Of a stretch of 64,000 bases of DNA, positions 1-61,219 are shown piece by piece. A program made the translations under genes and the position numbers. Source of the stretch: Candidatus Gottesmanbacteria bacterium (GTDB lineage Bacteria; Patescibacteriota; Microgenomatia; UBA10105; UBA927); NCBI GenBank assembly GCA_963701185.1, contig OY969569.1, positions 318,268-382,267 of the forward strand, in the 5' to 3' direction. Below the pieces are notes generated by a model that was not told the DNA's origin, did no database searches, and worked only from the letters and a program-made list of their open reading frames with translations. Numbering within the stretch: the first letter of the stretch is position 1; every line of letters begins with the position of its first letter.

Positions 1-1
1 A

Positions 2-985
2 GCGTCAATCAATCCAGCATTGTTGGTTGGAGGCAATAACGTAATTGCCGTGGAAATGCACCAATCGACTGCGGGAAGTTCTGATTTGAGCATGGATTTG
101 GAATTGATCGCCGATCTGGCCGGAACCACTCCTACCCCGACCCCAATCTCAGGACAATGCCAGTCGGCAATAGTCCCTGCTTATTTTTATCCACCCGGAT
201 ACTGGAATCAATTGACGATAAATCATACGACCCGGGACGTCGCCGTTATGAACCCCAATAGCGGTCCGGGGACGAGTGTTAATCAGGAATATGTCACAGC
301 AGTTAACCAGGCAAGAAATAACGGACTGGAAGTAAGCGGTTATGTGGCTACCGGTTATGGAGCCAAAGATATAAATTTGGTTAAAAATGAAATTAACAAT
401 TATGCGGCTTGGTACGGGGTTAACTCAATTTTCCTGGACGAAGCTGCATCTACCCAGTCGCTGTTAAGTTACTATCAAGAACTTTATACATATATAAAAA
501 CCAGGAACGGAAGTGTAACAATTAATCCCGGAACAGTACCGTACGAAGGATATATGAATGTGGCGGACCATGTGGTGATATTTGAAAATAATTACACCGC
601 CTATGCATCAACTACTTTTCCAAGTTGGATTACCAATTACAATGCGAATAAATTTGTCCATTTGGTATATAACACTCCTGAATCATTATTAACAGCCGCG
701 ATTAATAAGGCCAAAAGTGCCAATGCAGGATTTGTTTATATTACCAATGATGATTTACCCAATCCCTGGGATACATTGCCATCCTATTGGAACAGTGAAG
801 TAAATTTGAAATGTGCTACCACAAAACCGGATGCTAATGGTGATGGTTTGGTAAATGAAGCGGATTATAATATTTGGCTCAGTCATTACGGACAAACAGT
901 ATTAGGAATAAGTATGGGAGATTTTAATAATGACAATAAAGTTGACGGTATCGATTACGTAATATGGTTAAATAATTTACCGTAA
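2..985 (+). CDS. Secreted spherulin-4-like (YFYP...NPNSGPG) protein with a C-terminal type-I dockerin module. It is 5'-truncated by the window edge; the ORF-track start at 20 is a TTG.
   Basis: The frame is open from position 2. There is a Spherulin4-like N-terminal region (PAYFYPPGYWNQL). The C-terminus has two Ca-binding dockerin repeats, DANGDGLVNEADYNIWL and DFNNDNKVDGIDYVIWL. Confidence 0.5.
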   Translation, partial: ASINPALLVGGNNVIAVEMHQSTAGSSDLSMDLELIADLAGTTPTPTPISGQCQSAIVPAYFYPPGYWNQLTINHTTRDVAVMNPNSGPGTSVNQEYVTAVNQARNNGLEVSGYVATGYGAKDINLVKNEINNYAAWYGVNSIFLDEAASTQSLLSYYQELYTYIKTRNGSVTINPGTVPYEGYMNVADHVVIFENNYTAYASTTFPSWITNYNANKFVHLVYNTPESLLTAAINKAKSANAGFVYITNDDLPNPWDTLPSYWNSEVNLKCATTKPDANGDGLVNEADYNIWLSHYGQTVLGISMGDFNNDNKVDGIDYVIWLNNLP

Positions 986-1001
986 AGCACCAGTCAATTC
1001 G

Positions 1002-2465
1002 TTACCGGTGGTTCATTAGCCAAATAACATAATCCACTCCATCTACGAAACCGTTTGAATCAAAATCCCCATCACTCGGTCCATTCGCAGTTGAAGTTTT
1101 GTAATGATTAATCCACACCAAGTAATCAATCTCATTGACATATCCATCACCGTTAGCATCTCCCGGGAAAACTGGATTGGAAGACGGAGAGGGAGTTACG
1201 GTGGATGACGGCGGCTGCGATAAGAAGACACTGGTGCGGTCCGGCGCACCGGCTAATTTGCGGTATTCATCCCAACTAAATAATTGACCGGTGCTGTCAT
1301 ACATTAGATGAGTATTCGGATTGCCGTCGGTGTAATACGTATTACCGTCAATGGTGTTGTTGGCCGCAAATTCAGCCATAGATCCTCTTGCGGCGAGAAA
1401 TAAGTATTTCGGGGAGATCGCTCTGTCCTGAATGAATAAATTATTCGTAATGTAATTGCCGGTATTTAGTAATCCTCCTTGGAAAGCAAAGTTCGCACTG
1501 CCGGAAACATTTTTTACATTCTTTGAAATATTGGCGTAAATTTCGTTGTTATCCGCATCGGAATCCATCATGATGTTCGCATTTGTATTGTTGTAGACAT
1601 AGTTGCCAAAAATTTTTGCTTTGTTATGTCCGATGTAAATACCAACGTTATTCTCATAAGCGGTGTTATTTTTGAGCGTTGGAGAATATGGGCTGGTATA
1701 AATAGATTCGCTGTTAATTTTGAAACCGGCCGACGAATTGTAAGCGGCAACGCTATCTTGAATTGTCACCCCAAACTTAACGTAGAAACCGTGATGGGCA
1801 TAGATATCGTGTCCATTGTGGTGGGCATTACTATTCTTAATCAGGATATCATGAGGCCCTTTTGCTCCGGTATCTGACCCGATTAACGCACCATTCTTAT
1901 AATTGTAAGCAAACTCACTGGTGTCTAAGGTGATATTGTAGGATTCTTGACCTGCCCCCCAACCAGCGGCAAAACCAGATGCAATGGCAGAATTCCTAAA
2001 TATATCGTTATAAAAATACATACTGTGGGTATAAACCAAAGCAGTTGCCGTGCTGGCTGCTCCGGAAAAGTCAAGGTTTTCATAACGTAAATGATGGACA
2101 TATGGTCCATCTATATATAAAGCGTTGGATGCCGACCCATCGATAATCGGGCGTGCACCTGATCCGTAAGCTCCATATGTTATCCATGCAACGTCGGTTC
2201 CACTTCGCGTCGGTTTTAACTGACCCGCAAATGTTTCCCCACGTTTAAATAACACCTGATCTCCAGGATTTAAGAGCGCAGCATTAACCTTGGCAATTGT
2301 TTTCCAGGGAAGATCTGCGGACAGGCCGGTCTGACTATCAACTCCGTTTGATGAAACATAATACGTGGCAGCAAAGACGGCTTTTGGATTGGCTAATATG
2401 ACTAAGCTAACAAACAAAAATATACAAAAACGACTACTGACAATATTTTTAAAATATTTTTTCAC
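1002..2465 (-). CDS. Secreted right-handed beta-helix (pectate-lyase fold) protein with a C-terminal dockerin.
   Basis: There is an N-terminal signal peptide (MKKYFKNIVSS...AVFA). It is rich in N/G/T repeats typical of parallel beta-helix proteins. The C-terminus carries two dockerin repeats, DANGDGYVNEIDYLVWI and DFDSNGFVDGVDYVIWL. Confidence 0.55.
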   Translation of the reverse strand: MKKYFKNIVSSRFCIFLFVSLVILANPKAVFAATYYVSSNGVDSQTGLSADLPWKTIAKVNAALLNPGDQVLFKRGETFAGQLKPTRSGTDVAWITYGAYGSGARPIIDGSASNALYIDGPYVHHLRYENLDFSGAASTATALVYTHSMYFYNDIFRNSAIASGFAAGWGAGQESYNITLDTSEFAYNYKNGALIGSDTGAKGPHDILIKNSNAHHNGHDIYAHHGFYVKFGVTIQDSVAAYNSSAGFKINSESIYTSPYSPTLKNNTAYENNVGIYIGHNKAKIFGNYVYNNTNANIMMDSDADNNEIYANISKNVKNVSGSANFAFQGGLLNTGNYITNNLFIQDRAISPKYLFLAARGSMAEFAANNTIDGNTYYTDGNPNTHLMYDSTGQLFSWDEYRKLAGAPDRTSVFLSQPPSSTVTPSPSSNPVFPGDANGDGYVNEIDYLVWINHYKTSTANGPSDGDFDSNGFVDGVDYVIWLMNHR

Positions 2466-2628
2466 GTATACAATCCTCCACTTTTATTATAGACTAAAAC
2501 TAAACTTTTTGTTACAAGTATTGAATTGTTGCCGATTGGTGAAACATGATGTGTTAATTATAACCTAAAAAGACGCTGACCGCACAATTTTCATTGTCTC
2601 TCACAAATACAGGTGATATGCTGGGATT

Positions 2629-3774
2629 GTGAGATCTGTACTTATTGTCGTCGCTCTTCTGGGCGCCGCTTTTTTCATCGGACTGTCTTCAACGCTTTTG
2701 TCACCACGGCACACTACATCCACTCAGGAAGCGGCCGCACGGGAGTTTACTCTTGAGGGCTTATTAACCGTTCCTACCGGCACCACCGCTGCGGCTATTT
2801 TGGGATCTATCAGCGTCAACGGGGATATTCCTGCCGGTTCCACGATGAACGTGGAAGCAAGACAAACCGGAACTGCGCAATTTAGTACCGTCCTGCAAAA
2901 TATTCCGGCAAAATCAAATCAAACATTTTCTTATACCAAGGCAACACTTAGCGTTACTTATGACATGAAAGTCACGCTTCTTTCTCCGACAAGTAAAGTC
3001 ATCGGGTCATCAGAAATCCTTACGGTATCGGCCCCTTCTCTGAACGTCCAATTCAAACTGGATTCTGTGCTCCCACCCGCGACTCCCACCCCAAGCCCGG
3101 AAGCGATAACACCAACACCGGCTCTTACGCCTACTCTTACCCCTCCATCCACTCTTGCTCTTGCAACAATTTCAGGAAATATTAGCTTCTACGGCGTGAC
3201 ACCGATTAACTCGCGCATTGTTATCCTGCAAAAATTGGCGAATGCCTCTTCGTATCAGGTGGCGGTAGACAATGTGCTTCCCATCAACGGGACCATGTGG
3301 CAATGGGATCATTCCCTGCGTGGTACTTCCTATTCGGTTATCGCTGTACTTAAACAGAAACGTAGTGACGGGATGGATACGGATTTCGCCTCTTCCGCTC
3401 CGATTACCGTTACCGCACCTGCGGCATCTACTGTTTTGACCGTTAATTCTCATCATACGTTAACGAAACCATCAGAAATCTCAAGCGTCAGCTGTACAAC
3501 ATATAACGGCGGTCCAAATCAAAATACATGGAATGTTACCGTAAATTTCCCTTCTTTTACCGGCGCACAATCATATTGGCTTGAGATTGGTACGACCGAC
3601 GGTGGATATGATATCGCTAACACGTATGGAAGCGCGACTGCGGTCTCGACTGTATTCAAAAATAATACTGCCTATTATGCGAGGTATGCGTATGCCGCAG
3701 TTTCAGGCGTGGATACCGGAAGCGGGCAGTACTCAATATTTTCGGATACAACCCGACTTATGTGCAGCAAATGA
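2629..3774 (+). CDS. Secreted hypothetical protein with a Pro/Thr-rich linker.
   Basis: It has a GTG start, an N-terminal TM/signal segment and a PATPTPSPEAITPTPALTPTLTPP linker. I recognise no catalytic motif. Confidence 0.4.
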   Translation: MRSVLIVVALLGAAFFIGLSSTLLSPRHTTSTQEAAAREFTLEGLLTVPTGTTAAAILGSISVNGDIPAGSTMNVEARQTGTAQFSTVLQNIPAKSNQTFSYTKATLSVTYDMKVTLLSPTSKVIGSSEILTVSAPSLNVQFKLDSVLPPATPTPSPEAITPTPALTPTLTPPSTLALATISGNISFYGVTPINSRIVILQKLANASSYQVAVDNVLPINGTMWQWDHSLRGTSYSVIAVLKQKRSDGMDTDFASSAPITVTAPAASTVLTVNSHHTLTKPSEISSVSCTTYNGGPNQNTWNVTVNFPSFTGAQSYWLEIGTTDGGYDIANTYGSATAVSTVFKNNTAYYARYAYAAVSGVDTGSGQYSIFSDTTRLMCSK

Positions 3775-3793
3775 TCAAGGTTCTTTTTGTATA

Positions 3794-4759
3794 TCAATAA
3801 ATAATAGTAGAATCTTTAACGATTTCCTTCATATAAAGAGCCCAGCCTTGGTCGTTGAAACTCTCACCTCTTTTTGCTAAAACGGCATATTTTTCGGCCA
3901 ACGGGATAAAGTTGGGAAAAATTTCAGCCGTTTTCTTTCCGTCTATCTTCATCATGCTTTCCACCACCGCAGCCAGATACCACGTCGCATAAAGCTCGGT
4001 TTGAGAGCCTTTTACTGCGGTTAAAAAAAAATCCGTTGGCGGCGAATTATTAACAGCTTCACTATATTCCCTCCAACTTTCTATATAGCGCTTTGCCTGA
4101 AAAAGGTGGGCCGCTTCGTGGCACATAATAAAAGCATCTGCCAGTAAATTTGGCTTATACTCCTCAAAACCCAGGTGCAAATCAGAATTGAAATTTATCG
4201 TGCTATGCATCCCGCGCTCCGGATTCCAGGAATAATGATAATCTGCCCCAGTCCGACCGCTATGTTTATCCGGATTTTGTGAAAAAGATTCTGCCTTAAT
4301 TTCCAATACACCCGCTCCCACTAAAGTATTCAACTGATTGGCCACATCACGAAACGGCGCAAACCCGGATTCAACCATCGCGGGAAGAAGAATGTTCCGG
4401 TAGTAGTCTCCAAGTACGGCATCTTTTGCTTCAAGATTCGGGATATTTACCGTAGGAAAATTATTTGGTGTTAAAAATTTTTCCGCAACATACGTTTTTA
4501 CCTGTTCATCGGGTTTGTAAGTAGGATCAGGGGAAGAAAGATCTGCGGACATCTTGGATAAAAAGATCTGCCAGCTGACGATATCATCACTGGCCAGCGC
4601 CTGATCGAAAAGCTCTTTTCGGGAAATGCCGGGAGTAGGGGTCGGTAATCGGGGGGCATCCGGCACACAACCGGTCAATAAAGCGGCAAGAGTCAAGCCG
4701 CTAAGTTTTAAAAAATTCTTCCGGGAAATTTGAGGGGGTTTTTCCAATTTTCGATCCAT
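3794..4759 (-). CDS. Lipoprotein with an HExxH motif (putative zinc metallopeptidase).
   Basis: There is a lipobox (LAALLTGC) and the motif MCHEAAHLF. The start is taken at the internal Met of the 329-aa ORF. Confidence 0.4.
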   Translation of the reverse strand: MDRKLEKPPQISRKNFLKLSGLTLAALLTGCVPDAPRLPTPTPGISRKELFDQALASDDIVSWQIFLSKMSADLSSPDPTYKPDEQVKTYVAEKFLTPNNFPTVNIPNLEAKDAVLGDYYRNILLPAMVESGFAPFRDVANQLNTLVGAGVLEIKAESFSQNPDKHSGRTGADYHYSWNPERGMHSTINFNSDLHLGFEEYKPNLLADAFIMCHEAAHLFQAKRYIESWREYSEAVNNSPPTDFFLTAVKGSQTELYATWYLAAVVESMMKIDGKKTAEIFPNFIPLAEKYAVLAKRGESFNDQGWALYMKEIVKDSTIIY

Positions 4760-4816
4760 GTAGACATGATACCATAAAAACAATAAAAATCAGTTTGTGA
4801 TGGGAAATAATACGAG

Positions 4817-5599
4817 TTACTGTATACAGAATAGGCTTCCGACCGGCGTGAGTTCGGAAAGATTCGTTTCTCCGTTATAAAACGCCGAGGCGCTGCCGCC
4901 GTCAAGATTGACTGCGTCCGCAATCCCAAGATTTTCTTTCCGGCTTATGGAAGAAACAATCGACGGAAGGGACGCCAGAAGCGGCCCTGAATACACGGAA
5001 TCTTTGGAATAGACCGCAAGAAATACAAATTGACCGTCTACTGTTTTTCCCACGACCATCCGTCTGGCATGTTCGTCCTTTTGAATAACAAGGGACAGGT
5101 CCGTGCTATTGAATAAAAGGAGTGGTCCTGTTTGCAGGGCAAAACGGTAGAATGTATGCGGCAGGTCCGATGAGATAATCGCATCGCCGCTTCCGTCTGC
5201 CCAAAAAAATCCGTTAACCAACGCGCTGGGTATTTTGGCTCCGAAGGTTTTTTTGTCCGTATAGAAAAACCCCAGCGGTTTGCCTGCCGTATCATAAAAT
5301 CCTCCGTTAACGGATTCTTTGCAGCTATTGTTCATTCCTAATGACTTCGCATCCTGTCTCCCGCTGAAATTAGGAATAAGAGTAATCGCGGATGCCGTCG
5401 CCGCACGTATAACTGCATAGGAATACACAGCATCGCCGGCCGGTATTGTCAGTTCGGATTGTGTGTTTTCCGGTGTGGGTGTCGGCGTATCAGCGAGTAG
5501 CGGAGGGTTCTCATTACGGGGGGTAGCGGCAAATTGAAACACCATCCATGCCAGGACAACAACACAGAGAGCCGTGACAATGATGAATACCCGCTTCAT
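4817..5599 (-). CDS. Membrane-anchored protein, possibly of the phosphodiester glycosidase (NAGPA-like) family.
   Basis: It has an N-terminal TM segment and an NLDGGSASAFY motif reminiscent of NAGPA-domain proteins. Its ATG overlaps the upstream stop in an ATGA arrangement at 5596-5599. Confidence 0.3.
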   Translation of the reverse strand: MKRVFIIVTALCVVVLAWMVFQFAATPRNENPPLLADTPTPTPENTQSELTIPAGDAVYSYAVIRAATASAITLIPNFSGRQDAKSLGMNNSCKESVNGGFYDTAGKPLGFFYTDKKTFGAKIPSALVNGFFWADGSGDAIISSDLPHTFYRFALQTGPLLLFNSTDLSLVIQKDEHARRMVVGKTVDGQFVFLAVYSKDSVYSGPLLASLPSIVSSISRKENLGIADAVNLDGGSASAFYNGETNLSELTPVGSLFCIQ

Positions 5600-6345
5600 G
5601 TCTGTCCGCCCTTTTTCCAAAGAGGGGAGTTAATCAGGGGAGAGAAAATATCCTCAGTTATGGAAATATGAAGAGCCTGTATTTCTTTTGCCGTCGGCGG
5701 CCGGTCGGCAAACCGGACAAAGGGCACACCGGAAATAACGGAAAGAGGCGTTTGTTCGTTTCCTTCTCCCATCACCAGGACTGCCGCAGCACTCAGTCCG
5801 TCCAAAACACTTGCCTTCGTAACGTGCAGAAGCCTTCCAAAAATATCCGGTTGGTCGATATAATTCTTAAGCGGCTCAAACCCGCAGAATCCGATGCCGA
5901 TTCCCGTCACGCCCCACCGCAGCGGCGTTGTATGGCTGTCGATGATGATGACCCCTACATGTTTCAGGTGGTGCGTTTCCCGCAGATGCCTCCACACATC
6001 CGCTGCCGTTTTTTCAATATTCACCGGCCAAAGAATAAAGTAGCCGTTTCCGTTGCTTTCATCGATGCCGGACGAGGCAATGAGCGTATCATTTTTTACC
6101 GTGAGCACGATGCCCCATTGACGGGAATTTTCTTCCTCCATGTAGAGCTGGGACTCCTTGTGAATAAGGTCGTGTTTATCGATGGTCCCGTCGTTTTTGA
6201 TAACGCGCCCCTGGCAGATGCTGACGATTTTTGACGTAACGGCCACCACGCTTCGTTCCGGAAGTTTCGGAAGGCATGCGTCGAGTGTTTCCAACAGCCG
6301 GTTTCCGACAACAATTTTTGGAGTCTTATACGCCGTGACGATCAT
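5596..6345 (-). CDS. CofE-like protein (F420-0:gamma-glutamyl ligase family fold).
   Basis: The N-terminal region MIVTAYKTP...VVAVTSKIVSICQGRV resembles the CofE signature. The fit is from memory, not from an alignment. Confidence 0.45.
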   Translation of the reverse strand: MIVTAYKTPKIVVGNRLLETLDACLPKLPERSVVAVTSKIVSICQGRVIKNDGTIDKHDLIHKESQLYMEEENSRQWGIVLTVKNDTLIASSGIDESNGNGYFILWPVNIEKTAADVWRHLRETHHLKHVGVIIIDSHTTPLRWGVTGIGIGFCGFEPLKNYIDQPDIFGRLLHVTKASVLDGLSAAAVLVMGEGNEQTPLSVISGVPFVRFADRPPTAKEIQALHISITEDIFSPLINSPLWKKGGQT

Positions 6346-6350
6346 AGGCG

Positions 6351-6761
6351 TTATCTGGGCCGGGCGGCCTTTTTTATCAATTTCGCAACGTAAATAATTT
6401 CCCGCACCTCACCGTCATCAGTTTCTATTTCGTTGGTCCCGCTCATCCGCATGTATTCCCGCAGGTAATCGGAAAGCGCGCCGTCGAGCTCTTTTGTTTG
6501 GACAGCCAAATCTTTCACTTTATCCGCCAGGCCGCGGTTTGCGGGCAGCTGCATGATCTGATATTTGGTGAGTGCCTTTGTTTTGGCGGCTTTCTTGGCT
6601 TCCTCCGTATGCAGACGGTACGTTTCATCGTTCAAAAGCGCACTTTCGAGCATTTCCCGCTGTTTTTTCAGCTCCGCCCTGTTTTTATCAATCAGAGAAA
6701 TATGATTCTTAATCGTGGCTTCCAACTCCAGAAGTACTGTTGCACCGTTATCGTCTGCCAT
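6351..6761 (-). CDS. Coiled-coil hypothetical protein.
   Basis: It is a 136-aa K/E/L-rich ORF. I recognise no domain. Confidence 0.35.
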   Translation of the reverse strand: MADDNGATVLLELEATIKNHISLIDKNRAELKKQREMLESALLNDETYRLHTEEAKKAAKTKALTKYQIMQLPANRGLADKVKDLAVQTKELDGALSDYLREYMRMSGTNEIETDDGEVREIIYVAKLIKKAARPR

Positions 6762-6827
6762 AGATACCTACTATACAAACAAGTCGAGTGGTAAATCAAG
6801 AGGGAAATAGTGTAAAATACACGTACG

Positions 6828-6901
6828 GCCCCCATCGTCTAGCGGCCTAGGACAGTGGGTTTTCAGCCCATTAATCTCCGGTTCGAATCCGGATGGGGGT
6901 A
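6828..6901 (+). tRNA. tRNA-Glu (anticodon TTC).
   Basis: A cloverleaf can be read directly. The acceptor GCCCCCA pairs with TGGGGGT. The anticodon loop is TTTTCAG with U33 and A37, and the T-arm is GGTTCGAATCC. CCA is not encoded. Confidence 0.85.
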
Positions 6902-6910
6902 CTCACATAA

Positions 6911-6928
6911 CCCGCCGTGGGCGGGTTT
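6911..6928 (+). terminator. Rho-independent terminator after tRNA-Glu.
   Basis: A cccgcc-gtg-ggcggg hairpin is followed by TTT. Confidence 0.45.
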
Positions 6929-6938
6929 ATTGGTCTCT

Positions 6939-7601
6939 ATGACACATGAATTTGATCAATCACTATTAACTGAATTTTATTCAAAATTATATGGCGGGAA
7001 CGCAAAGCATGATAGTCCGGAGTTTAGCCGAATACGCATGATCCGGTATCTCGCAAGCGAACTATCTGCCCGGGGAGAAAAAGTAAAAATATTGAATGTG
7101 GGCGCGGGCAGGCAATCTCTCGAAAAACAATTCCTTACTGCGTATCGACGGATGGGGTGGATAAAAAATCTATCGTTTGTCACCGTTGATATAGCGAATA
7201 TTATTCAGTATAAGCTACTTGCAGCACATTCATCTACGGTGAGGCACGTTCAAGCAAACGCTCTTCAATTACCCTATCCGGATGATACATTTGATTTCGT
7301 TATTAGCAATTTGGCAATCGATTTTCTTCCACACTCGGCAATCGGCGAAGCATCGAGAGTGCTAAAAAAAGAGGGAGACGCCGTGTTTCATTTTCATCAT
7401 CCAACTCTTACCGATAATCCGCCCGTTCATCCGAGCATCGTTGCATTTTGGAGCTATCTTCGCACCAATAACGTGTTGTTTCAAAATGAACAACAAATAC
7501 ATGAAACGTTGCAGCAATACGGCCTTCAAACACATTCTACGCATATAGCCACCGATGGCATTGACCGTTGGTGGGAAGTCCATGCGAAAAAATCGGCGTG
7601 A
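6939..7601 (+). CDS. Class I SAM-dependent methyltransferase.
   Basis: Motif I is ILNVGAGRQ and the post-I region is DFVISNLAIDFL. The track ORF start at 6855 lies inside the tRNA, so I take the ATG at 6939 (MTHEFDQ). Confidence 0.65.
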   Translation: MTHEFDQSLLTEFYSKLYGGNAKHDSPEFSRIRMIRYLASELSARGEKVKILNVGAGRQSLEKQFLTAYRRMGWIKNLSFVTVDIANIIQYKLLAAHSSTVRHVQANALQLPYPDDTFDFVISNLAIDFLPHSAIGEASRVLKKEGDAVFHFHHPTLTDNPPVHPSIVAFWSYLRTNNVLFQNEQQIHETLQQYGLQTHSTHIATDGIDRWWEVHAKKSA

Positions 7602-7624
7602 ACGTAGCATGACGGTAAAAACAT

Positions 7625-9223
7625 TTACTTCGCTACGCGATAAATCGCCATATAGCTGTTGGTATAAATCGGCGTGAGAGAGGCGGGCAGATTCTTCGTG
7701 AATGAATAGGCCACAACGCAGGAAATCCCGTTGGAAGAAAGAATCTGCAATTTTTGCGCCATTGGTGTCGCATCGGCAAAAAAGTCCGTCACTTGCCGCT
7801 CTTTGATCAAATAGTCTATCGTCGCATATTGATTGACAATAAATGCCCTGCGGCCGGTCAGTCCCGTAAACGAGATATGAAACGGCCAGATGACGAGGCA
7901 GGTCTCCTGGGGACCGATGCGTTTTTCGGCCTCCCGATACGCATCCAGCACCGTATTCGGCAGAAAATAATAGGCATTCCACTGTTGGAACGTGGCACGG
8001 GCAACCGCCTGCTGAACGGTCGGCGCAATGGTACATGCGAGAATGATTGCCGTTATCCCGACCCGAATCACATTGTAAAAAGATGGTTTGAAGCGTTTGC
8101 CAAACGCTTCGATGAGGACTGCGGCGGCACATGCCATCGTCAGCGTCGGAACAACGGAAAGGAACCGGACGTTGAGAACCGCGATAAGGGACGGAATGGG
8201 TGATAAAAAGAGCCCCCAGGAAATAAGCGTGAAGACGACAATCATCTGGCGGGCCCGGATGCGTGCGGATACAAAGAGCGGCAAACCGACGACTCCCAGA
8301 AGGACAACCGGGCCGTTGACCTGAAAGAATTTCAGGATGGTCATGTGGACCTGCTGTGTCGCTTCCCATGTAATGATCCAGCTAAACGGCGGATGAGACA
8401 ATAGTGTCCGTAAATATGCCGCGTACGGAACGGCTCCGGCTCCTATGAGGAGCAGTGCAGGGAAGAATTCTGAGTTCATGCCTTCCTTTACCCAAAACAC
8501 TGCGACCGTCGCAAGCACGACTAACACGAGCGGCGTCTGCGTGCTGGCAAGCAGGAATCCGGAAAGTACAAATAGTGCCCACGTCGTGAAGAAACGGGAA
8601 CGGGGGATACGAGTGGAACTCGCCAACAGAAGAAGCGTGCCGACTAGGACGGTTTGCGCCAAAAGATGATGCGGAATACTGGAAAATCGGGTAAACGGTT
8701 CACCGTAGTTATACCAGGACCAGTACGATTGCAGCGTCCATCCGTTGGGCGTGCGGTTCAGGTACGGCCACGCGTTGCTTGTCAGAAACAAAATATAGGC
8801 GATCGCGCTTCCTGATCGGGACGGTACAGCCATGCGTATGAGTCGATACGAAAAGAAAAGCAACAGGATGGTTAAACCGAGGATAAGAAGCTGATACCCG
8901 AGGATGTTGGAAATACCCAACACACTAAACACACGACCGGAAAGCACATAAAACCAGTGGTAAAACACCCGTGTCGTTGACTCCGGGGTGTTGATATCCA
9001 TCGATGTCAGCCAGCGGAGTTTCCCCTGAGCCATATAGGACAGGTAGTAATAGTAATCCAGAGAATAATGGACGGCTCCGGCGAATGTCGTTCCGGGAGC
9101 TTGCTTCCAGACGCCGGCGATGTAGGGGCTGAAGACAAGAAGCGCATACAATGCCGAAACGCCAATAATAAACATACGACTCAAGTATACTACAGAAGAA
9201 TTCCCCGAAGAGTGACTCCCCAT
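7625..9223 (-). CDS. Polytopic integral membrane protein (GT-C-like or unknown family).
   Basis: It is 532 aa with more than 10 hydrophobic helices. I recognise no soluble catalytic motif. Confidence 0.5.
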   Translation of the reverse strand: MGSHSSGNSSVVYLSRMFIIGVSALYALLVFSPYIAGVWKQAPGTTFAGAVHYSLDYYYYLSYMAQGKLRWLTSMDINTPESTTRVFYHWFYVLSGRVFSVLGISNILGYQLLILGLTILLLFFSYRLIRMAVPSRSGSAIAYILFLTSNAWPYLNRTPNGWTLQSYWSWYNYGEPFTRFSSIPHHLLAQTVLVGTLLLLASSTRIPRSRFFTTWALFVLSGFLLASTQTPLVLVVLATVAVFWVKEGMNSEFFPALLLIGAGAVPYAAYLRTLLSHPPFSWIITWEATQQVHMTILKFFQVNGPVVLLGVVGLPLFVSARIRARQMIVVFTLISWGLFLSPIPSLIAVLNVRFLSVVPTLTMACAAAVLIEAFGKRFKPSFYNVIRVGITAIILACTIAPTVQQAVARATFQQWNAYYFLPNTVLDAYREAEKRIGPQETCLVIWPFHISFTGLTGRRAFIVNQYATIDYLIKERQVTDFFADATPMAQKLQILSSNGISCVVAYSFTKNLPASLTPIYTNSYMAIYRVAK

Positions 9224-9540
9224 GTGAGCATATGACGTGCCCAGAGCTCGTGGTCGGTAATACCCAAGCGGTATTCCTTTTCCAGCCGGTCAAAAGAATG
9301 GTTGAATTTTTGAAAACCCGAATCGAAAGAAGGTGTTATGGGAAAACCCAGGAGAGCATTGAGATTTTTACGGGTAAGGCGGAGAAACAGCTCAATTCTT
9401 GGTTGTTCTTTGATAAAACTTTTTTGAGCCCAGGTGCCGATCTGCGTTAGATTTTCAGCCGTATCCAACACAAGATCACGCTGGTTTATGAGGGAATAAT
9501 TACTGGTTGCGGATTTTGGGATAATACCATCACTATACAC
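9190..9540 (-). CDS. Hypothetical protein.
   Basis: It is a 116-aa ORF between the membrane protein and the helicase, with no motif. Confidence 0.25.
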   Translation of the reverse strand: MYSDGIIPKSATSNYSLINQRDLVLDTAENLTQIGTWAQKSFIKEQPRIELFLRLTRKNLNALLGFPITPSFDSGFQKFNHSFDRLEKEYRLGITDHELWARHMLTWGVTLRGILL

Positions 9541-9542
9541 GG

Positions 9543-10703
9543 TTAGTCGATAAAGGTCAACGCAACACCGCGTTTAGCAGCCCGTCCCGTGCGTCCGATG
9601 CGGTGGATATAATCATCCATGGTTTCCGGAAGATCATAGTTAATAACATGCGATACATCCGGTATATCCAGGCCGCGGCTGGCCACGTCCGTTGCCAGTA
9701 AAATCTGTATTTCATTATGAATAAATTGGTTCAACACATGTTGACGCTGTCCCTGACGTTTGTTTCCGTGGATCGCGCCCGTTTTTACACCGCGGTTTGC
9801 AAGCTCATCGGCAACTTTCTGAACGCCGTGTTTGGTCCTGCCGAAAGCAAGCACTTTGGAAAACTCCCGTCTCTTTAATAGCTCGTGAAGTGTATCTATC
9901 TTCGTTGTGTTTTGTGAAACCCGAATGACATCCTGCGAGATCTGCGATTCCGTTTCCGCTGATTTTACTGAAATTCTGACGGGATTTTTTACAAAATCAG
10001 CAAGCAGCCCGCCAGCACTCCCGGAAATCGTTGCGGAAAAAAATAGAGACTGACGCGCCGGCGGCAGCAGAGAAATAAAATATTGAATCTCGCGGATAAA
10101 CCCGATATCGACCATCCTGTCCGCCTCATCCAAGACGACAGAGCGGAATCCGGACAGGCGGATAACCTTCGTTTCGATAAACTCTTTGAGTCTGCCGGGG
10201 GTAGCGATGACAAAATGCGGATCATCCTGCATGTCTTTCTTCTGCCTCCATTCGTTGGCGCCTCCGATAAGAAGAGCGCTGCGGATGGATAATCCGCGGG
10301 CAAAATCCCGCAGCTGGTTATGTATCTGAAACGCCAATTCACGGGTAGGCGCGATCACCAGGACCCGCTGTACACGGTCGCGTGTGATTTTTTGAATAAG
10401 CGGGATTAAAAACGCCGCAGTTTTACCCGTACCGGTGTTGGCGACGCCGATAACATCGCGTCCTGCCAAAACCGCAGGAATGACTTCGTTTTGAATAGCA
10501 GTAAGGGAGGAGAAGCCTTTGATCCGGATATTTTCAAAAAGAACGGGATCCAATGCAAAATCTGCAAACGTACCGGCCGCGGGTGCGGCTACGGCCGGCT
10601 GACGAGTGGCCCTCTCTTTGCTTTGGGCAATCGCTGCCATGAGCAGATGCTTCGGCACGCTTTTTATGACCCGTGATCGGTTAAATCTTTGATTATTTCT
10701 CAT
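9543..10703 (-). CDS. DEAD-box ATP-dependent RNA helicase.
   Basis: The motifs are AxTGTGKT, PTRELA, TPGRL, VLDEADRM, SAT and HRIGRTGR. Confidence 0.9.
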   Translation of the reverse strand: MRNNQRFNRSRVIKSVPKHLLMAAIAQSKERATRQPAVAAPAAGTFADFALDPVLFENIRIKGFSSLTAIQNEVIPAVLAGRDVIGVANTGTGKTAAFLIPLIQKITRDRVQRVLVIAPTRELAFQIHNQLRDFARGLSIRSALLIGGANEWRQKKDMQDDPHFVIATPGRLKEFIETKVIRLSGFRSVVLDEADRMVDIGFIREIQYFISLLPPARQSLFFSATISGSAGGLLADFVKNPVRISVKSAETESQISQDVIRVSQNTTKIDTLHELLKRREFSKVLAFGRTKHGVQKVADELANRGVKTGAIHGNKRQGQRQHVLNQFIHNEIQILLATDVASRGLDIPDVSHVINYDLPETMDDYIHRIGRTGRAAKRGVALTFID

Positions 10704-10872
10704 AGGATAGAAATATTAAAAAAATAAAACTGCTTAAAAAATGAATACAGAACTGAAATGGGGAAAAGACGCGGTAATAAATTTTGAGGCGTTTTTTCGC
10801 TTACACTTCGTAGATCTAACTCTATTAAGCAGATGTATTTCTTCAATACAACTGCAAAACGTATTATATCAT

Positions 10873-11451
10873 CTATTTCTTAAAATAGCAATTGCGGCAG
10901 CGGGGCTGGTAAGTGTCAATTTTCCCGACAAGCGATGGATCGGCCATATGGGGATCTACGGTTTTACCGCTCACAATCCGCTTATGGTACACCGCCTCAT
11001 CTCCGCACAGGACACAGACGGCAGACAGTTTGGTCACTTTATCCGCCATACTCATGAGGGTCGGAATCGGAGCAAACGGCTCGCGGTCGTAGGTCAGGGC
11101 AAGTCCCGCCACCACAACCTTTTTCCCTTTGGAAAGAAGCGTTTCTATAACCGGCACAAGGCTGTTGCCAAACCACTGTGCTTCATCTATTGCGATGATC
11201 TCTGTTTTCGGGTGAATTTTCGCCAGGATTTGTCGTGGTGAAGAAACAACATCCGATTCAAACGAGATGCCGGCGTGAGAAAAAAGTTTTTTGTCCCGCC
11301 CATAGCGCGTGTCAATGGCGTGCTTAAATACCTGAATTTTTTTCTTTGCAATCGCCGCGCGGCGGACCTGGCGGATAAGCTCTTCGGTTTTTCCGCAGAA
11401 CATCGGGCCGGCAATGACCTCTAAATATCCTAATTTGATATGTTTAGACAT
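10873..11451 (-). CDS. tdk: Thymidine kinase.
   Basis: There is a P-loop GPMFCGKTEEL and a C-terminal Cys zinc ribbon (CVLCG...CRNC). Confidence 0.9.
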   Translation of the reverse strand: MSKHIKLGYLEVIAGPMFCGKTEELIRQVRRAAIAKKKIQVFKHAIDTRYGRDKKLFSHAGISFESDVVSSPRQILAKIHPKTEIIAIDEAQWFGNSLVPVIETLLSKGKKVVVAGLALTYDREPFAPIPTLMSMADKVTKLSAVCVLCGDEAVYHKRIVSGKTVDPHMADPSLVGKIDTYQPRCRNCYFKK

Positions 11452-11488
11452 AATTGACGATATATATTTTCGGGTTTATTATGGATTC

Positions 11489-11743
11489 ATGGCAGAAGAA
11501 ATTAATGAATCCATTTCGGTTGCTCTGTGGAGCAATCATACCACAAACAAAATCCTCCCATATAGCCTCTATTGGCAGGGCCGCCGCTACCACATAACGA
11601 AAGTCGGATTTCATCATACCGTGCACGAGGGACGTGTGCTTACCCACATATTTTCGGTCACCGACGGAACGACGTTTTTTAAATTACGATTTGATACGGA
11701 AACGCTCTTATGGAAACTGCTGGAGGTAGCAGATGGAGTTTAA
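11489..11743 (+). CDS. Small hypothetical protein.
   Basis: The ORF lies between tdk and dinB. The track start at 11414 overlaps the tdk start, so an internal Met is more likely. I recognise no motif. Confidence 0.2.
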   Translation: MAEEINESISVALWSNHTTNKILPYSLYWQGRRYHITKVGFHHTVHEGRVLTHIFSVTDGTTFFKLRFDTETLLWKLLEVADGV

Positions 11744-45344: not shown

Positions 45345-46028
45345 TTACGGATTTATTTGCGTCGAAATATCATAAAAACGCAATTGTACGAGCTTTAATC
45401 CACTATTATCGTAGTTCCAATAATAATCTTTCAAAGCATCGTTGAACAAATTGTACCGTTCAACCGCTCCGTCACCGTTTATGTCTGCATAGATATACAG
45501 CAGTATGCTGCTCACATTGGTAAATTTACTGCCACCGGTATTTCGTACCATCAACATGGATTGCACAGAACACCATAATTCACCTGTGGTCGGATCTGTG
45601 GCACAGGGCGTTGTTGTCGATTTCCCACCCGGCTTACCGAGAGCGCGCGCCCACACGGAATATGTCGTGACCCCGTCATTTGTGGGATCGGGATTGGGCA
45701 ACTGAAACGATGCGCCGTTGTCGTCAGTACAATTTCCGTCGATCACCGCAAAATCTCCTTCTTTCAGACCAATTTTACAGTTCCCCTGTAACGGAACAAA
45801 TATTCTGTGCCCCTGACTACCGGTCATATCAGCAGTTTTTCCTTTTGGTACACCTATAATATTTAAATTGTAATGCGCACCTGCAGGCGCGTTGTTGCCC
45901 GCTCTTGCCCGCATTTCCGTCGATTTAATATAGGCATTGAAGTACCAAATGAATCCGAGAATGACAAGAAGTGTGATTCCTAAGAAATACCATGTGCGAC
46001 TATCGTAACTTATTGTCTTACGAGCCAT
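45345..46028 (-). CDS. Membrane-anchored secreted hypothetical protein.
   Basis: It has an N-terminal TM helix and a Cys-containing extracellular domain, with no motif. Confidence 0.35.
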   Translation of the reverse strand: MARKTISYDSRTWYFLGITLLVILGFIWYFNAYIKSTEMRARAGNNAPAGAHYNLNIIGVPKGKTADMTGSQGHRIFVPLQGNCKIGLKEGDFAVIDGNCTDDNGASFQLPNPDPTNDGVTTYSVWARALGKPGGKSTTTPCATDPTTGELWCSVQSMLMVRNTGGSKFTNVSSILLYIYADINGDGAVERYNLFNDALKDYYWNYDNSGLKLVQLRFYDISTQINP

Positions 46029-50434: not shown

Positions 50435-50670
50435 AAATACCTATGAAAAATAGTAAAAATAATTTCGCAACTATTGGCATAGTATTGGGTGTACTATCAA
50501 TATTTTTTGCATGGATTGGGATAATACCCCTTTCTGGATTGGTGGTGAATACGATAGGAATTGTTAAATCAAGGAAATTAGAAGGAAAAGGTAAGTGGAT
50601 GGCGATAATTGGATTAGTGCTATCAGCGTTGTACACACTCGTGTATCTTAATAGATATGGTTATATCTAA
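50422..50670 (+). CDS. Small 2-TM membrane protein (DUF4190-like).
   Basis: Its two TM helices are GIVLGVLSIFFAWIGIIP and MAIIGLVLSALYTLVYL. Confidence 0.3.
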   Translation: MQEVKIPMKNSKNNFATIGIVLGVLSIFFAWIGIIPLSGLVVNTIGIVKSRKLEGKGKWMAIIGLVLSALYTLVYLNRYGYI

Positions 50671-57895: not shown

Positions 57896-57903
57896 CAAAA
57901 AGT

Positions 57904-59524: not shown

Positions 59525-61219
59525 ATGATCGCAGTCCTCTTATTTCTTTTTGCGTTTGTCTTTCCGCCCAAGGCCTATGCCCTCTATAACCCCACGAGTG
59601 TGCCGAATAACAAATACGGTATCCATATTGTCGATACCAATAACATTGCCGACGTCGTGCCGCTCGTCAACAGCACGGGCGGAAACTGGGGGTACGTCAC
59701 GATGGTCTTATCCGACTCCGAACGCGATCACGACCGCTGGCAGAATATGTTTAACCAGATGCGCCGCGCACATCTCATTCCGATTGTGCGCCTGGCGACA
59801 CACGTTGAGGGAAAAGCCTGGGTAAAGCCGAATAAAGACAGGTTCTACGAGCTTGTCAAGTTACTCAACAGTCTGAACTGGCCCACGGAAAACCGCTACG
59901 TCATCCTCTACAACGAGCCCAACCATGCCAATGAATGGGGAGGAGAAATCAATCCGGAAGAGTACGCAGATTACCTTGTGACATTTGCGTCCGCGCTTAA
60001 AAGCGCCAATAGTGATTTTTTCATCCTGCCGGCGGGACTTGATGCCTCGGCAGGTGACGACGAAGCCATGGATGAGGGTGAATATCTCAAGCGCATGATC
60101 GCAGCAAAACCGGAAATTCTTACGCTCATTGACGGCTGGACGAGCCACAGCTACCCCAATCCCGGTTTTTCCGGGTCGCCCTGGGCCCGCGGCCGCGGAA
60201 CGCTCACCACCTATCAATGGGAACTTTCCTACCTTTCTTCACTGGGACTCACGAGGCAATTGCCGGTATTTATCACGGAAACAGGCTGGCAGCACAGTGA
60301 AGGGAAATCGTACGCCGGGGGTTTACTTTCAACTGACCAGGTAGGCGCAAATTTACTCATCGCAGCCAAAAACGTCTGGAGCGACACGAATATTGCGGCT
60401 GTCACCCCGTTTCTTTTTAGCTATCAGGACGTACCGTTTGATCATTTCTCCTTTAAACAACTGGGCAGTGATTCTTTTTATAGCCAATATTATGCCTATC
60501 AGGCAATCGCAAAAATAAAAGGCACGCCCACACAGCGCGAGTCGTATACGCTGACAACGGATTTTCTGCCCAAAACGCTTGTATCCGGCTCCACCTATAC
60601 GCTGACGGGGTCTGTGAAAAACGAAGGGCAGGGGATACTCGATCCGAAAGATGGGTATGAACTTGTTCTATCTGATAACTTTCCTATATTTATCGACCCA
60701 TTACCTCTGGTTGAACCCGGTAGTTCAGGCGCGATATCAATCCATCTGAAAACCCCAAACCAAACCGGTACGTTTGCCGTAAACGTGGCACTGCGGCATA
60801 ACGGAAAGGATATGCTCCTTGAGCACAGGGATATTACCCTCCTGCCCCCGCCGTCGGTCGCGATTCATGCAAACCTCGGATGGAGAAAGACAAGCGACGC
60901 CGGAGACGTCACCGTGCTTCTCTATGACAACCATACCCTTCTGCAAAAATTTACCGGATTATCCATGAAAAACGGGGTTGTGCGGGCTGAAAAACTCACC
61001 AACGTTATTCCGGGCAATCCGTACCGCATCGTCACGCTCGTTCACGGATATTTGCCGCGGCAGACAATCACTGCACTCGGTCCGGAAATGACGACGCTGT
61101 ACCCGAATCGTTTTCTCCCCTTAGATTTCAACAATGACGGAGCATTTACACTTGCGGATCTCATAGCGCTATCCCTGGTTCCGCCATGGACGGCAACCCT
61201 TCGCTTCTTCGGCCCGTAA
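59525..61219 (+). CDS. Secreted clan GH-A glycoside hydrolase (GH5/GH39-like) with a C-terminal dockerin repeat.
   Basis: There is a signal peptide. The acid/base motif is ILYNEPNHANEW and the nucleophile is FITETGW. The C-terminus carries LDFNNDGAFTLADLIAL. Confidence 0.6.
   Translation: MIAVLLFLFAFVFPPKAYALYNPTSVPNNKYGIHIVDTNNIADVVPLVNSTGGNWGYVTMVLSDSERDHDRWQNMFNQMRRAHLIPIVRLATHVEGKAWVKPNKDRFYELVKLLNSLNWPTENRYVILYNEPNHANEWGGEINPEEYADYLVTFASALKSANSDFFILPAGLDASAGDDEAMDEGEYLKRMIAAKPEILTLIDGWTSHSYPNPGFSGSPWARGRGTLTTYQWELSYLSSLGLTRQLPVFITETGWQHSEGKSYAGGLLSTDQVGANLLIAAKNVWSDTNIAAVTPFLFSYQDVPFDHFSFKQLGSDSFYSQYYAYQAIAKIKGTPTQRESYTLTTDFLPKTLVSGSTYTLTGSVKNEGQGILDPKDGYELVLSDNFPIFIDPLPLVEPGSSGAISIHLKTPNQTGTFAVNVALRHNGKDMLLEHRDITLLPPPSVAIHANLGWRKTSDAGDVTVLLYDNHTLLQKFTGLSMKNGVVRAEKLTNVIPGNPYRIVTLVHGYLPRQTITALGPEMTTLYPNRFLPLDFNNDGAFTLADLIALSLVPPWTATLRFFGP

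What the first reader, a model, noticed from the sequence alone, without database searches (positions are those of the whole stretch)
2..2465. Dockerin-tagged secreted enzymes without an evident cohesin partner
Three secreted proteins carry type-I dockerin Ca-binding repeats (D-x-N-x-D-G-x-x-x-x-x-D, then hydrophobics). They are a spherulin-4-like protein (2-985), a beta-helix lyase-like protein (1002-2465) and, at 59525-61219, a GH-A glycosidase with a single repeat. No cohesin-like scaffold is recognisable in the window. In a small-genome organism with archaeal-type central metabolism, these modules may mediate attachment to a host or partner cell, or to its own S-layer, rather than forming a cellulosome.
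Basis: partly seen in the sequence, partly recalled or inferred. Interest (0 to 1): 0.5.

Follow-up and report, generated by a model that had tools for sequence, protein, structure and literature searches.

The report
Dockerin-tagged enzymes of a CPR bacterium
Two secreted sugar-polymer-degrading enzymes of an ultra-small (Microgenomates/CPR) bacterium end in a genuine dockerin tag. The 64-kb window holds no cohesin partner, but relatives carrying the same tag keep cohesin anchor genes next to such enzymes, so this is most likely ordinary cargo of a cell-surface docking system already reported in this group.

Summary

The same dockerin subfamily (GDANGDGkVDGvDYviWLNnY, twice) is abundant in Woese-, Gottesman- and Amesbacteria. 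In 15 of 35 CPR loci (12 of 21 genomes) cohesin genes lie within 10 kb, in a recurring order: dockerin-enzyme array, cohesin-dockerin adaptor, small cohesin, then a cohesin with an LPxxG-like motif and C-terminal TM anchor.

The window genes are therefore most likely cargo of a cohesin-dockerin surface-display system whose scaffoldins are encoded elsewhere in the ~1-Mb genome. The cargo is not cellulolytic (GH135-like plus phosphoesterase; a GH136/PL9/PL6-like beta-helix). Cohesin/dockerin proteins in Microgenomates are already in the literature. I rate this a new member of a known kind, of moderate interest.

The parts
2..985 (+). 3' third of a 787-aa secreted multidomain gene (the 5' part lies left of the window, in L001). 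The window part holds the end of a beta-sandwich, a PT linker (125-145), a Spherulin4/GH135-like domain (about 167-805) and a C-terminal dockerin (827-982).
   Evidence: Pfam Spherulin4 1.9e-45 and Dockerin_1 23.9 bits. Full length in L001:11929-14292(-) with Metallophos at residues 53-237. PDB Sph3 5d6t 9.5e-16.
830..955 (+). The two Ca-binding loops of the protein-1 dockerin (830-865 DANGDGLVNEAD; 920-955 DFNNDNKVDGID). Each is followed by a DYxIWL helix.
   Evidence: Subfamily alignment A3.
1002..2465 (-). 487-aa secreted right-handed beta-helix enzyme. It has a signal peptide (about 2370-2465), a beta-helix (about 1206-2366), an S/P/T-rich linker (1173-1220) and a C-terminal dockerin (1005-1166).
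   Evidence: Dockerin_1 28.1 bits. AF2 beta-helix pLDDT mostly above 90. Foldseek top hits are GH136 lacto-N-biosidases (2.6e-10), Pel9A, PL9 and PL6 lyases and AlgE epimerases. 100% identical to P0001, which is on a 995,214-bp contig.
1032..1160 (-). The two Ca-binding loops of the protein-2 dockerin (1125-1160 DANGDGYVNEID; 1032-1067 DFDSNGFVDGVD), with DYLVWINHY and DYVIWLMNH helices.
   Evidence: PDB dockerin matches. AF2 places helices at residues 447-453 and 476-486, at low confidence.
59525..61219 (+). 564-aa secreted clan GH-A-like TIM-barrel glycosidase (NEPNH 59912-59926; TETGW 60275-60289), followed by beta-sandwich domains and a single C-terminal Ca-loop (61124-61159). It is not a two-repeat dockerin.
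   Evidence: Weak Pfam GH5 and Glyco_hydro_cc hits. 641 homologues. E131 and E252 are invariant. The loop is conserved in 41 of 58 homologues. The family profile's best PDB hits are XDoc chains 4wi0_B and 4u3s_B, E about 1e-3, over the C-terminal region.
2629..3774 (+). Membrane-anchored PT-linker protein. It was tested as a candidate cohesin partner and rejected. It is three FN3/Ig-like beta-sandwiches (residues 54-145, 178-273, 286-377).

Best explanation
The two genes at the left end of the window encode Sec-exported enzymes of a Microgenomates-group (CPR/Patescibacteria) bacterium. Both act on glycans or phosphoesters.
- Protein 1 combines a metallophosphoesterase, a beta-sandwich and a GH135-like (Sph3-like) hydrolase.
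- Protein 2 is a GH136/PL9/PL6-like beta-helix.

Each ends in a flexible P/T/S-rich linker and a Ca2+-dependent dockerin. The dockerin belongs to a distinct, internally symmetric subfamily (GDANGDGkVDGvDYviWLNnY, twice).

Most likely these dockerins plug the enzymes onto cohesin modules of scaffoldin proteins encoded elsewhere in the ~1-Mb genome. In relatives this takes the form of a cohesin-dockerin adaptor, plus a cohesin protein carrying an LPxxG-like sorting motif and a C-terminal membrane segment. The enzymes would then be displayed on the cell surface, where they attack extracellular or partner-cell polysaccharides and phosphorylated glycopolymers.

Shown: the dockerin modules, the domain content, and the cohesin operons next to the same dockerin subfamily in relatives.
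Inferred: the presence of a cohesin in this genome, the binding itself, surface localisation and the substrates.

The third protein (59525-61219) belongs to a different, widespread family with one conserved Ca-loop. Whether it docks at all is open.
For: Dockerin identity:
- Pfam hits, PDB dockerin matches, and motif enrichment of 5 observed against 0.05 expected.
- A conserved 15-member subfamily alignment with 13 invariant columns and both repeats alike.

Same subfamily in CPR genomes:
- 169 confirmed matches in one-per-species genomes. Of the best 76 loci, 35 are CPR.

Cohesins beside them:
- L008 has Pfam Cohesin at 73.9, 34.1 and 44.0 bits, against a cut-off of 24.1.
- L007 (Ca. Microgenomates, GCA_003599685.1) has two dockerin enzymes followed by a TM protein with a cohesin-like module.
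- The profile of these modules hits cohesins as its 13 best PDB matches.
- The iterated HMM finds 52 modules in 48 ORFs, in 15 of 35 CPR loci and 12 of 21 CPR genomes. Of those 48 ORFs, 19 also match Pfam Cohesin independently.
- The operon order and the LPAAG/LPRAG/IPDTG/LPDSG-plus-TM tails recur.

Other support:
- Cargo in relatives resembles the window's: Metallophos, beta-helix, glycoside hydrolases and lyases.
- Expressed cohesin and dockerin proteins are reported in Ca. Shapirobacterales, and 'cellulosomes' in Ca. Roizmanbacterium.
- Dockerin genes without an adjacent cohesin are normal in genomes that do have cohesins. For example, only 1 of 4 loci of Amesbacteria RBG_19FT_COMBO_48_16 has one.
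Against: - No cohesin lies in the 64-kb window or in the 4.4 kb to its left. The rest of the genome could not be read: one search found nothing, and several look-ups failed.
- In 9 of 21 CPR genomes, and in all 30 Planctomycetota loci with related dockerins, no cohesin was seen within 10 kb. Cohesin-less use of this module therefore cannot be excluded.
- None of the retained dockerin loci is labelled Levybacteria, the label carried by one named relative of the PT-linker protein.
- The two genes lie in a lower-GC patch (41-44% against 47-51%). They are absent from the syntenic site of a related genome, so they could be recently acquired orphans.
- The AF2 confidence of the dockerin segment is low (pLDDT 33-58).
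- No binding data exist for any CPR cohesin-dockerin pair.
Confidence: 0.62

Rival explanations
1. Orphan dockerins. The genome has no cohesin, and the modules bind something else: a host or partner cell-surface glycan or protein, the organism's own envelope, or cohesins made by another organism.
For: - No cohesin in the window or L001.
- 9 of 21 CPR genomes and 0 of 30 Planctomycetota loci show a cohesin near related dockerins.
- Non-cellulosomal dockerins in other ultra-small bacteria have been proposed as adhesins (Omnitrophota).
- A dockerin-domain protein is essential in an epibiotic Saccharibacterium and was speculated to target host glycans.
- The genes look accessory.
Against: - The same subfamily is physically linked to cohesin operons in most well-assembled CPR genomes sampled, including both complete Woesebacteria chromosomes.
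- Only 6.4% of the genome was examined.
- The strong two-fold symmetry of the module is the hallmark of cohesin-binding dockerins.
Confidence: 0.25
2. The repeats are generic EF-hand or thrombospondin-type-3-like Ca-binding loops that only stabilise the enzymes or aid folding after secretion. They have no docking role.
For: - Pfam scores are close to the cut-off (23.9/20.6 and 28.1 against 22.9).
- Weak EF-hand protein matches appear in the tail of the PDB list.
- Protein 3 has a lone loop.
Against: - The top PDB hits are dockerins, not EF-hand proteins.
- Module length, loop spacing (31 residues), C-terminal position after a linker and attachment to many unrelated catalytic domains are all dockerin-like.
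- 62 of 87 relatives pass Dockerin_1 at E<=1e-4.
- The modules are genomically linked to cohesins.
Confidence: 0.05
3. Protein 3's single C-terminal Ca-loop is a naturally truncated, functional dockerin that also docks on a cohesin, possibly as a pair.
For: - The loop is conserved in 41 of 58 full-length homologues.
- The family profile's best PDB matches are X-module-dockerin chains 4wi0_B and 4u3s_B, E about 1e-3.
- Single-loop group-2 dockerins of R. flavefaciens bind cohesin ScaE.
Against: - No Dockerin_1 hit and no subfamily HMM hit.
- The helix after the loop lacks the DYxxW signature.
- The PDB E-values are marginal.
- Linkage of this family to cohesins was not examined.
Confidence: 0.2

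Closest known systems
Cellulosomal cohesin-dockerin systems of Clostridia and Ruminococcus (for example R. flavefaciens ScaA/ScaB/ScaE, with sortase-anchored ScaE)
   Same: - Two-repeat Ca-binding dockerin at the C-terminus of secreted modular enzymes, after a linker.
- In CPR relatives: cohesin-dockerin adaptor proteins and a cohesin protein with an LPxTG-like motif plus TM tail.
- The profile of the CPR modules matches solved cohesins.
   Different: - Cargo is not plant-cell-wall centred. It includes phosphoesterases, sulfatases, PQQ propellers, subtilases, GH135-like domains and beta-helices.
- Scaffoldins are small, with 1-2 cohesins.
- The dockerin helices carry DYxxWLNxY instead of the clostridial Ser-Thr/Lys-Arg recognition pattern.
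- The host is a ~1-Mb-genome CPR bacterium.
- No cohesin lies in this window.
Cohesin and dockerin proteins reported in Microgenomates (Ca. Shapirobacterales metaproteome, Bell et al., bioRxiv 10.1101/2021.08.21.457207 / PMC9123182; Ca. Roizmanbacterium, Geesink et al. 2020 as cited there)
   Same: The same superphylum and the same two module types. The published interpretation is a cellulosome-like complex.
   Different: - Those reports name the domains only. Operon architecture, the two dockerin classes, the sorting-signal anchor and the cargo spectrum were worked out here from relatives.
- I could not read Geesink et al. to check how much they describe.
Non-cellulosomal dockerin-like modules (Peer et al. 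2009, as cited in PMC10066038); Omnitrophota giant dockerin proteins; Saccharibacteria SEML1_0315
   Same: Dockerin_1 modules in non-cellulolytic, often ultra-small or host-dependent prokaryotes. They are proposed to act in adhesion or glycan targeting.
   Different: Here the modules are single C-terminal tags on ordinary-sized enzymes. In relatives they are linked to bona fide cohesins.
Sph3 (GH135, spherulin-4 family) of Aspergillus, PDB 5D6T/5C5G
   Same: The catalytic domain of protein 1 matches at 9.5e-16 and Pfam Spherulin4 at about 1e-44.
   Different: It is fused to a metallophosphoesterase, a beta-sandwich and a dockerin. Substrate and catalytic residues were not tested.

Membership tests
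Dockerin module (Pfam PF00404 Dockerin_1) | HMM score at or above the curated cut-off (22.9 bits) | tested here: met
   - Protein 2: 28.1 bits.
- Protein 1: 23.9 bits as the window fragment, but 20.6 bits as the full-length protein, so borderline.
- Protein 3: no hit, so not met for that protein.
Dockerin module (Pfam PF00404 Dockerin_1) | Two tandem segments, each a 12-residue EF-hand-like loop (D1, N/D3, D/N5, D/N9, D12) followed by a helix, about 30 residues apart | tested here: met
   Proteins 1 and 2 have both loops with acidic or amide residues at positions 1, 3, 5, 9 and 12. The loops start 30 and 31 residues apart. Protein 3 has one loop only, with Thr at position 9.
Dockerin module (Pfam PF00404 Dockerin_1) | Dockerin fold (paired loop-helix motifs binding two Ca2+) | tested here: inconclusive
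   AF2 places helices at 447-453 and 476-486, directly after the loops, but pLDDT is 33-58. No Ca2+ is present in the model.
Dockerin module (Pfam PF00404 Dockerin_1) | Ca2+-dependent binding to a cohesin | not testable with these tools
   This needs recombinant proteins or complex prediction with a cognate cohesin, and none is known for this genome.
Cohesin-dockerin (cellulosome-like) assembly system | Cohesin-bearing scaffoldin encoded by the same organism | tested here: inconclusive
   Not met within the window plus 4.4 kb. It is met in relatives: 15 of 35 CPR loci and 12 of 21 CPR genomes.
Cohesin-dockerin (cellulosome-like) assembly system | Cell-surface anchoring of a scaffoldin (SLH or sortase signal) | tested here: inconclusive
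   Relatives have cohesin proteins ending in an LPxxG-like motif plus a hydrophobic tail. Nothing comparable is seen in the window.
Cellulosome in the strict sense | Cargo dominated by cellulases and hemicellulases | tested here: not met
   - Window cargo: Metallophos plus GH135-like, and a GH136/PL9/PL6-like beta-helix.
- Cargo of relatives: mostly phosphoesterases, propellers, sulfatases and proteases. Only 2 of 87 match GH5.
GH135 (Sph3 / spherulin-4) | Sequence membership in PF12138 and similarity to the solved Sph3 | tested here: met
   Spherulin4 155.7 bits against a cut-off of 30.2. 5d6t at 9.5e-16. Catalytic residues and activity were not tested.
Clan GH-A glycoside hydrolase (protein 3) | (beta/alpha)8 barrel with an acid/base Glu in an NEP motif and a nucleophile Glu | tested here: inconclusive
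   NEPNH and TETGW are present, with E131 and E252 invariant in 49 homologues. Pfam GH5 and Glyco_hydro_cc score below their cut-offs. PslG and GH5 PDB hits have E of only 0.2-0.3. No structure was predicted.
Cohesin (PT-linker protein 2629-3774 as candidate) | A ~140-aa nine-stranded jelly-roll matching Pfam Cohesin or solved cohesins | tested here: not met

The most novel reading that the evidence does not exclude
This organism truly lacks cohesins. Its dockerin-tagged hydrolases would then dock onto something foreign: cohesin-like receptors or surface polymers of a host or partner cell, or scaffoldins produced by neighbouring CPR cells. The dockerin would act as an inter-species attachment device that delivers enzymes to another cell's surface.
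Probability: 0.1. Interest if true: 0.8.

Novelty: new member of a known kind. Interest (0 to 1): 0.4.

Why it matters
CPR/Patescibacteria are thought to live attached to other cells, and how they organise their few extracellular enzymes is largely unknown. A cohesin-dockerin display system would be a concrete, testable mechanism for how these ultra-small cells harvest sugars, phosphate and sulfate at their surface. It would carry phosphoesterases, sulfatases, proteases and exopolysaccharide hydrolases rather than cellulases.

For this window the value is mainly corrective. The dockerins are real, but 'no cohesin partner' is an artefact of looking at 64 kb. The conserved operon seen in relatives gives a precise search image for the rest of the genome: enzyme-dockerin array, cohesin-dockerin adaptor, small cohesin, then a sorting-signal-anchored cohesin.

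Tried and rejected
- Exact look-ups of proteins 2, P0001, P0130 and the 321-aa neighbour found no record. Only the ATG-start CofE-like gene worked, and it gave L001. I could therefore extend only 4.4 kb to the left and could not reach the rest of the genome.
- A genome-contig scan with P0001 found no relative, so the source genome is not in that collection.
- The search for homologous proteins with the 63-aa dockerin alone returned nothing, because no shared words were found.
I scanned with the dockerin alignment A3 instead.
- The PT-linker protein was rejected as a cohesin candidate.
- Other secreted or unknown window proteins gave no cohesin signal: 3794-4783, 7625-9223, 35177-36979 (transglutaminase-like), 45345-46028, 47705-48643 and 50657-51235.
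- AF2 of protein 2 did not give a confident dockerin fold.
- Peer et al. 2009 (PMC3035643) is not held, and Geesink et al. 2020 could not be read. Both are cited only through papers that cite them.
Full report
**What is in the window**

The window is bacterial, with 46.8% GC.
- It carries 12 tRNA genes, uvrA/B/C-type repair genes, and glycolytic/gluconeogenic genes that include an archaeal-type FBP aldolase/phosphatase (PF01950, 1.9e-149).
- ORF 1002-2465 is 100% identical to protein P0001, recorded on a 995,214-bp contig.
- Named relatives of window proteins are labelled Candidatus Microgenomates, Candidatus Levybacteria or Patescibacteria group.
- The organism is therefore a CPR bacterium of the Microgenomates group with a genome of about 1 Mb.

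**Checking the observation**

Protein 1 (2-985, + strand):
- It scores Spherulin4 at 1.9e-45 and Dockerin_1 at 23.9 bits, against a curated cut-off of 22.9.
- It is cut by the window edge. A Logan contig (L001) is 100% identical to window 1-12913 and supplies the full 787-aa protein.
- The full protein reads: signal peptide, calcineurin-like phosphoesterase (residues 53-237), a beta-sandwich, a PT linker, Spherulin4 (516-728), then the dockerin.
- On the full-length protein, Dockerin_1 falls to 20.6 bits.
- The Spherulin4 domain matches the solved GH135 enzyme Sph3 (5d6t, 9.5e-16).

Protein 2 (1002-2465):
- It is on the minus strand, not the plus strand as the finding implies.
- It scores Dockerin_1 at 28.1 bits over residues 434-480.
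- Its module finds solved dockerins first in the PDB (8x39 at 1.1e-6, 4dh2_B at 5.7e-4, plus several type-I dockerins).
- AF2 with 47 sequences gives a confident right-handed beta-helix (pLDDT mostly above 90). The dockerin segment is low-confidence (33-58), with helices directly after each loop.
- The closest solved folds are GH136 lacto-N-biosidases (2.6e-10), Pel9A, PL9 rhamnogalacturonan lyase, AlgE epimerases and PL6 lyases.
- 'Beta-helix, lyase-like' is therefore fair, but the specificity is open.

Protein 3 (59525-61219):
- It gets no Dockerin_1 hit and no hit to the subfamily HMM.
- It belongs to a large family: 641 representatives at E<=1e-3.
- The family has an invariant NEP-Glu and TETGW-Glu, which fits a clan GH-A barrel.
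- A single C-terminal loop (LPxDxNxDGKFxxxD) is conserved in 41 of 58 full-length homologues, and none shows a second repeat in the C-terminal sequence inspected.
- The family profile's best PDB matches are two X-module-dockerin chains at E about 1e-3.
- Single-loop dockerins are known to be functional in R. flavefaciens. A truncated dockerin remains possible but unproven.

The loop motif is far above chance: 5 matches in the 58 ORFs against 0.05 in residue shuffles.

**Is there a cohesin in the window?**

There is none.
- Pfam found no Cohesin hit in the 36 window proteins scanned, which include every secreted or unannotated one.
It is a membrane anchor followed by three ~95-aa beta-sandwiches.
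- Its orthologue in a related 1.09-Mb genome keeps the NAGPA/CofE-like neighbours but has restriction-modification and sugar-modification genes where the window has the dockerin genes.
- It is therefore not a conserved partner.

**The turn: cohesins in relatives**

The dockerins of proteins 1 and 2 belong to a tight subfamily, GDANGDGkVDGvDYviWLNhY ... GDFnxsGkVDGvDYviWLNnY, with both halves nearly identical.

Two loci reached through dockerin-only hits were informative.
- L008 carries a phosphoesterase with this dockerin. About 5.4 kb upstream lie three membrane-anchored proteins with Pfam Cohesin at 73.9, 34.1 and 44.0 bits, against a cut-off of 24.1.
- In Candidatus Microgenomates GCA_003599685.1 (L007), a DUF5060-dockerin gene and a PQQ-propeller-dockerin gene are followed directly by a 472-aa TM protein.
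- Residues 48-188 of that protein match an HMM of the L008 cohesins (7e-9). Pfam Cohesin gives it only 14.7 bits.
- A profile of these modules hits cohesins as its 13 best PDB matches, the best being 1g1k at 5.7e-5.

I then scanned one genome per species with the dockerin alignment.
- There were 169 confirmed matches, and the best 76 loci were kept.
- 35 loci are CPR: Gottesman-, Ames- and Woesebacteria, Microgenomates, Patescibacteria, and two short Saccharibacteria contigs.
- 11 loci are from MAGs labelled Gammaproteobacteria or Pseudomonadales.
- 30 loci are from Planctomycetota, at lower identity.

An iterated cohesin HMM converged on 52 modules in 48 ORFs.
- A cohesin lies within 10 kb of the dockerin in 15 of 35 CPR loci and 12 of 21 CPR genomes. 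This includes both complete Woesebacteria chromosomes.
- The figure is 5 of 11 for the 'gamma' loci and 0 of 30 for the Planctomycetota loci.
- Pfam independently finds Cohesin in 19 of the 48 ORFs, and no other family explains the rest.
- The same HMM gives no hit in the window or L001, even at E<=10 with filters off.

**Architecture in relatives**

This part is inference from sequence. Loci L079, L029, L056, L058, L027, L019 and L008 repeat one order:
1. An array of one to five enzyme genes ending in the DYxxWLNxY dockerin.
2. A protein with an N-terminal TM or signal, a cohesin, a PT linker and a second kind of dockerin (DYxxLFxNFGK).
3. A 180-200-aa protein with one cohesin.
4. A protein with a cohesin, a PT linker, an LPAAG/LPRAG/IPDTG/LPDSG/LADAG motif and a hydrophobic C-terminal tail.

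That last element is a sortase-type sorting signal in form. Overall this is the layout of a small two-tier scaffoldin system.

The cargo of 87 CPR dockerin proteins is broad:
- Metallophos in 6, PQQ propellers in 5, DUF5060 in 4, sulfatases in 3 and beta-helices in 3.
- Subtilases, GH5, GH39, alginate lyases and GDSL esterases in 2 each, and one phytase.
- 62 of the 87 pass Dockerin_1 at E<=1e-4.
- The window's Metallophos-GH135 protein and its beta-helix protein fit this spectrum.

**What is already known**

- Bell et al. report that Ca. Shapirobacterales (Microgenomates) expressed proteins with cohesin and dockerin domains. They cite Geesink et al. 2020 for 'cellulosomes' in Ca. Roizmanbacterium.
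- A dockerin-domain protein is essential in the epibiont Southlakia epibionticum and was speculated to target host glycans.
- Non-cellulosomal dockerins in Omnitrophota giant proteins were proposed as adhesins.
- No paper in the library links cohesin or dockerin with Woese-, Gottesman- or Amesbacteria.
- The existence of the system in this superphylum is therefore known. I did not find the operon architecture, the two dockerin classes or the non-cellulolytic cargo described, but I could not read Geesink et al.

**Most likely mechanism for the window genes**

- The enzymes are exported by Sec. The signal peptides were judged by eye only.
- The dockerin folds around two Ca2+ ions. The near-identical halves suggest a dual binding mode.
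- It plugs into a cohesin on an adaptor or anchoring scaffoldin encoded elsewhere in the genome, so the enzymes sit on the cell surface.
- There, the GH135-like hydrolase with its phosphoesterase and the beta-helix enzyme would cleave exopolysaccharide or wall glycopolymers of the surroundings or of a partner cell.
- The modules and the linkage in relatives are shown. Everything downstream is inferred. I put this at about 0.6.

The main rival is truly orphan dockerins that bind something else. It keeps about 0.25, for these reasons:
- 93% of the genome is unseen.
- 9 of 21 CPR genomes showed no nearby cohesin.
- The two genes lie in a lower-GC patch (41-44% against 47-51%) that is missing from a related genome.

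**Verdict**

The claim that no cohesin is in the window is right.

The interpretation that these modules work without cohesins is probably wrong for the organism. The point that this is not a cellulose-degrading cellulosome is right.

I rate it a new member of a known kind, with interest 0.4. The value lies in the search image for the rest of the genome and in the broader picture of a CPR surface-display system.

Noticed in passing
window 45345-46028 (-): A 227-aa membrane-anchored, beta-rich protein with no Pfam or NCBIfam hit. It carries a lone dockerin/EF-hand-like loop DINGDGAVERYN (45450-45485) near its C-terminus. It does not match the dockerin subfamily HMM (E 0.75) or the cohesin HMM.
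   Followed up: partly
window 58707-59129 (+) and 59525-61219 (+): The small DUF192-like gene ends about 400 bp upstream of the GH-A-like gene, on the same strand, with two minus-strand tRNA genes (tRNA-Arg 59131-59203, tRNA-Gly 59431-59503) between them. Its sequence type appears fused to the C-terminus of some homologues of the GH-A protein: P0321, P0329 and P0355 end in '...LEVNAGF..IGD..'. This suggests a functional link between the two.
   Followed up: no
L001 10449-14292 = window 1-2465 plus about 1.4 kb to its left: The two convergent dockerin genes lie in a 41-44% GC patch, against 47-51% in the flanks. They are absent from the syntenic site of a related 1.09-Mb genome (L002), which has restriction-modification and sugar-modification genes there. 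This looks like a variable accessory region.
   Followed up: partly
L021, L023, L024, L026, L033, L035, L039, L043, L044, L050, L070: MAGs labelled 'uncultured Gammaproteobacteria' or 'Pseudomonadales' carry the same dockerin subfamily at 52-65% identity, and in 5 of 11 loci the same cohesin family. This points either to horizontal spread of the system or to mislabelled bins.
   Followed up: no
L041-L084 (30 Planctomycetota loci): Phycisphaerales and Pirellulales genomes hold many related dockerins (one MAG, fen_1343, contributes 15 loci). No cohesin of the CPR type lies within 10 kb of any of them. The HMM was trained on CPR modules and Pfam was not run on these loci.
   Followed up: partly
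window 54579-55880 (+), with tRNA-Leu at 56108-56190: A serine recombinase (Resolvase N-terminal domain, 1.1e-30) appears split into two ORFs (54579-55229 and 55302-55880). It lies in a stretch of short unannotated ORFs (about 50.6-56.6 kb) next to a tRNA gene. This may be the remnant of an integrated element.
   Followed up: no
window 25479-26597 (+); 20281-22545 (+): An archaeal-type bifunctional FBP aldolase/phosphatase (PF01950, 1.9e-149) lies in a run of glycolysis/gluconeogenesis genes with a PEP synthase/PPDK-like enzyme.
   Followed up: partly
window 4817-5620 (-) and 3794-4783 (-): Next to the dockerin genes lie a secreted NAGPA-type phosphodiester glycosidase (3.2e-13) and a putative lipoprotein with a faint metallopeptidase-like HExxH region (CHEAAH). 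The NAGPA gene is conserved next to the CofE-like gene in the related genome. Together with the phosphoesterase-GH135 fusion, this hints at phosphodiester-linked glycopolymers as substrates.
   Followed up: no
window 57822-57896 and 57826-58710: The longest ORF of the polyprenyl synthase gene starts inside tRNA-Pro, so its real start must lie further downstream. tRNA-Leu(taa) and tRNA-Pro abut at 57822.
   Followed up: no
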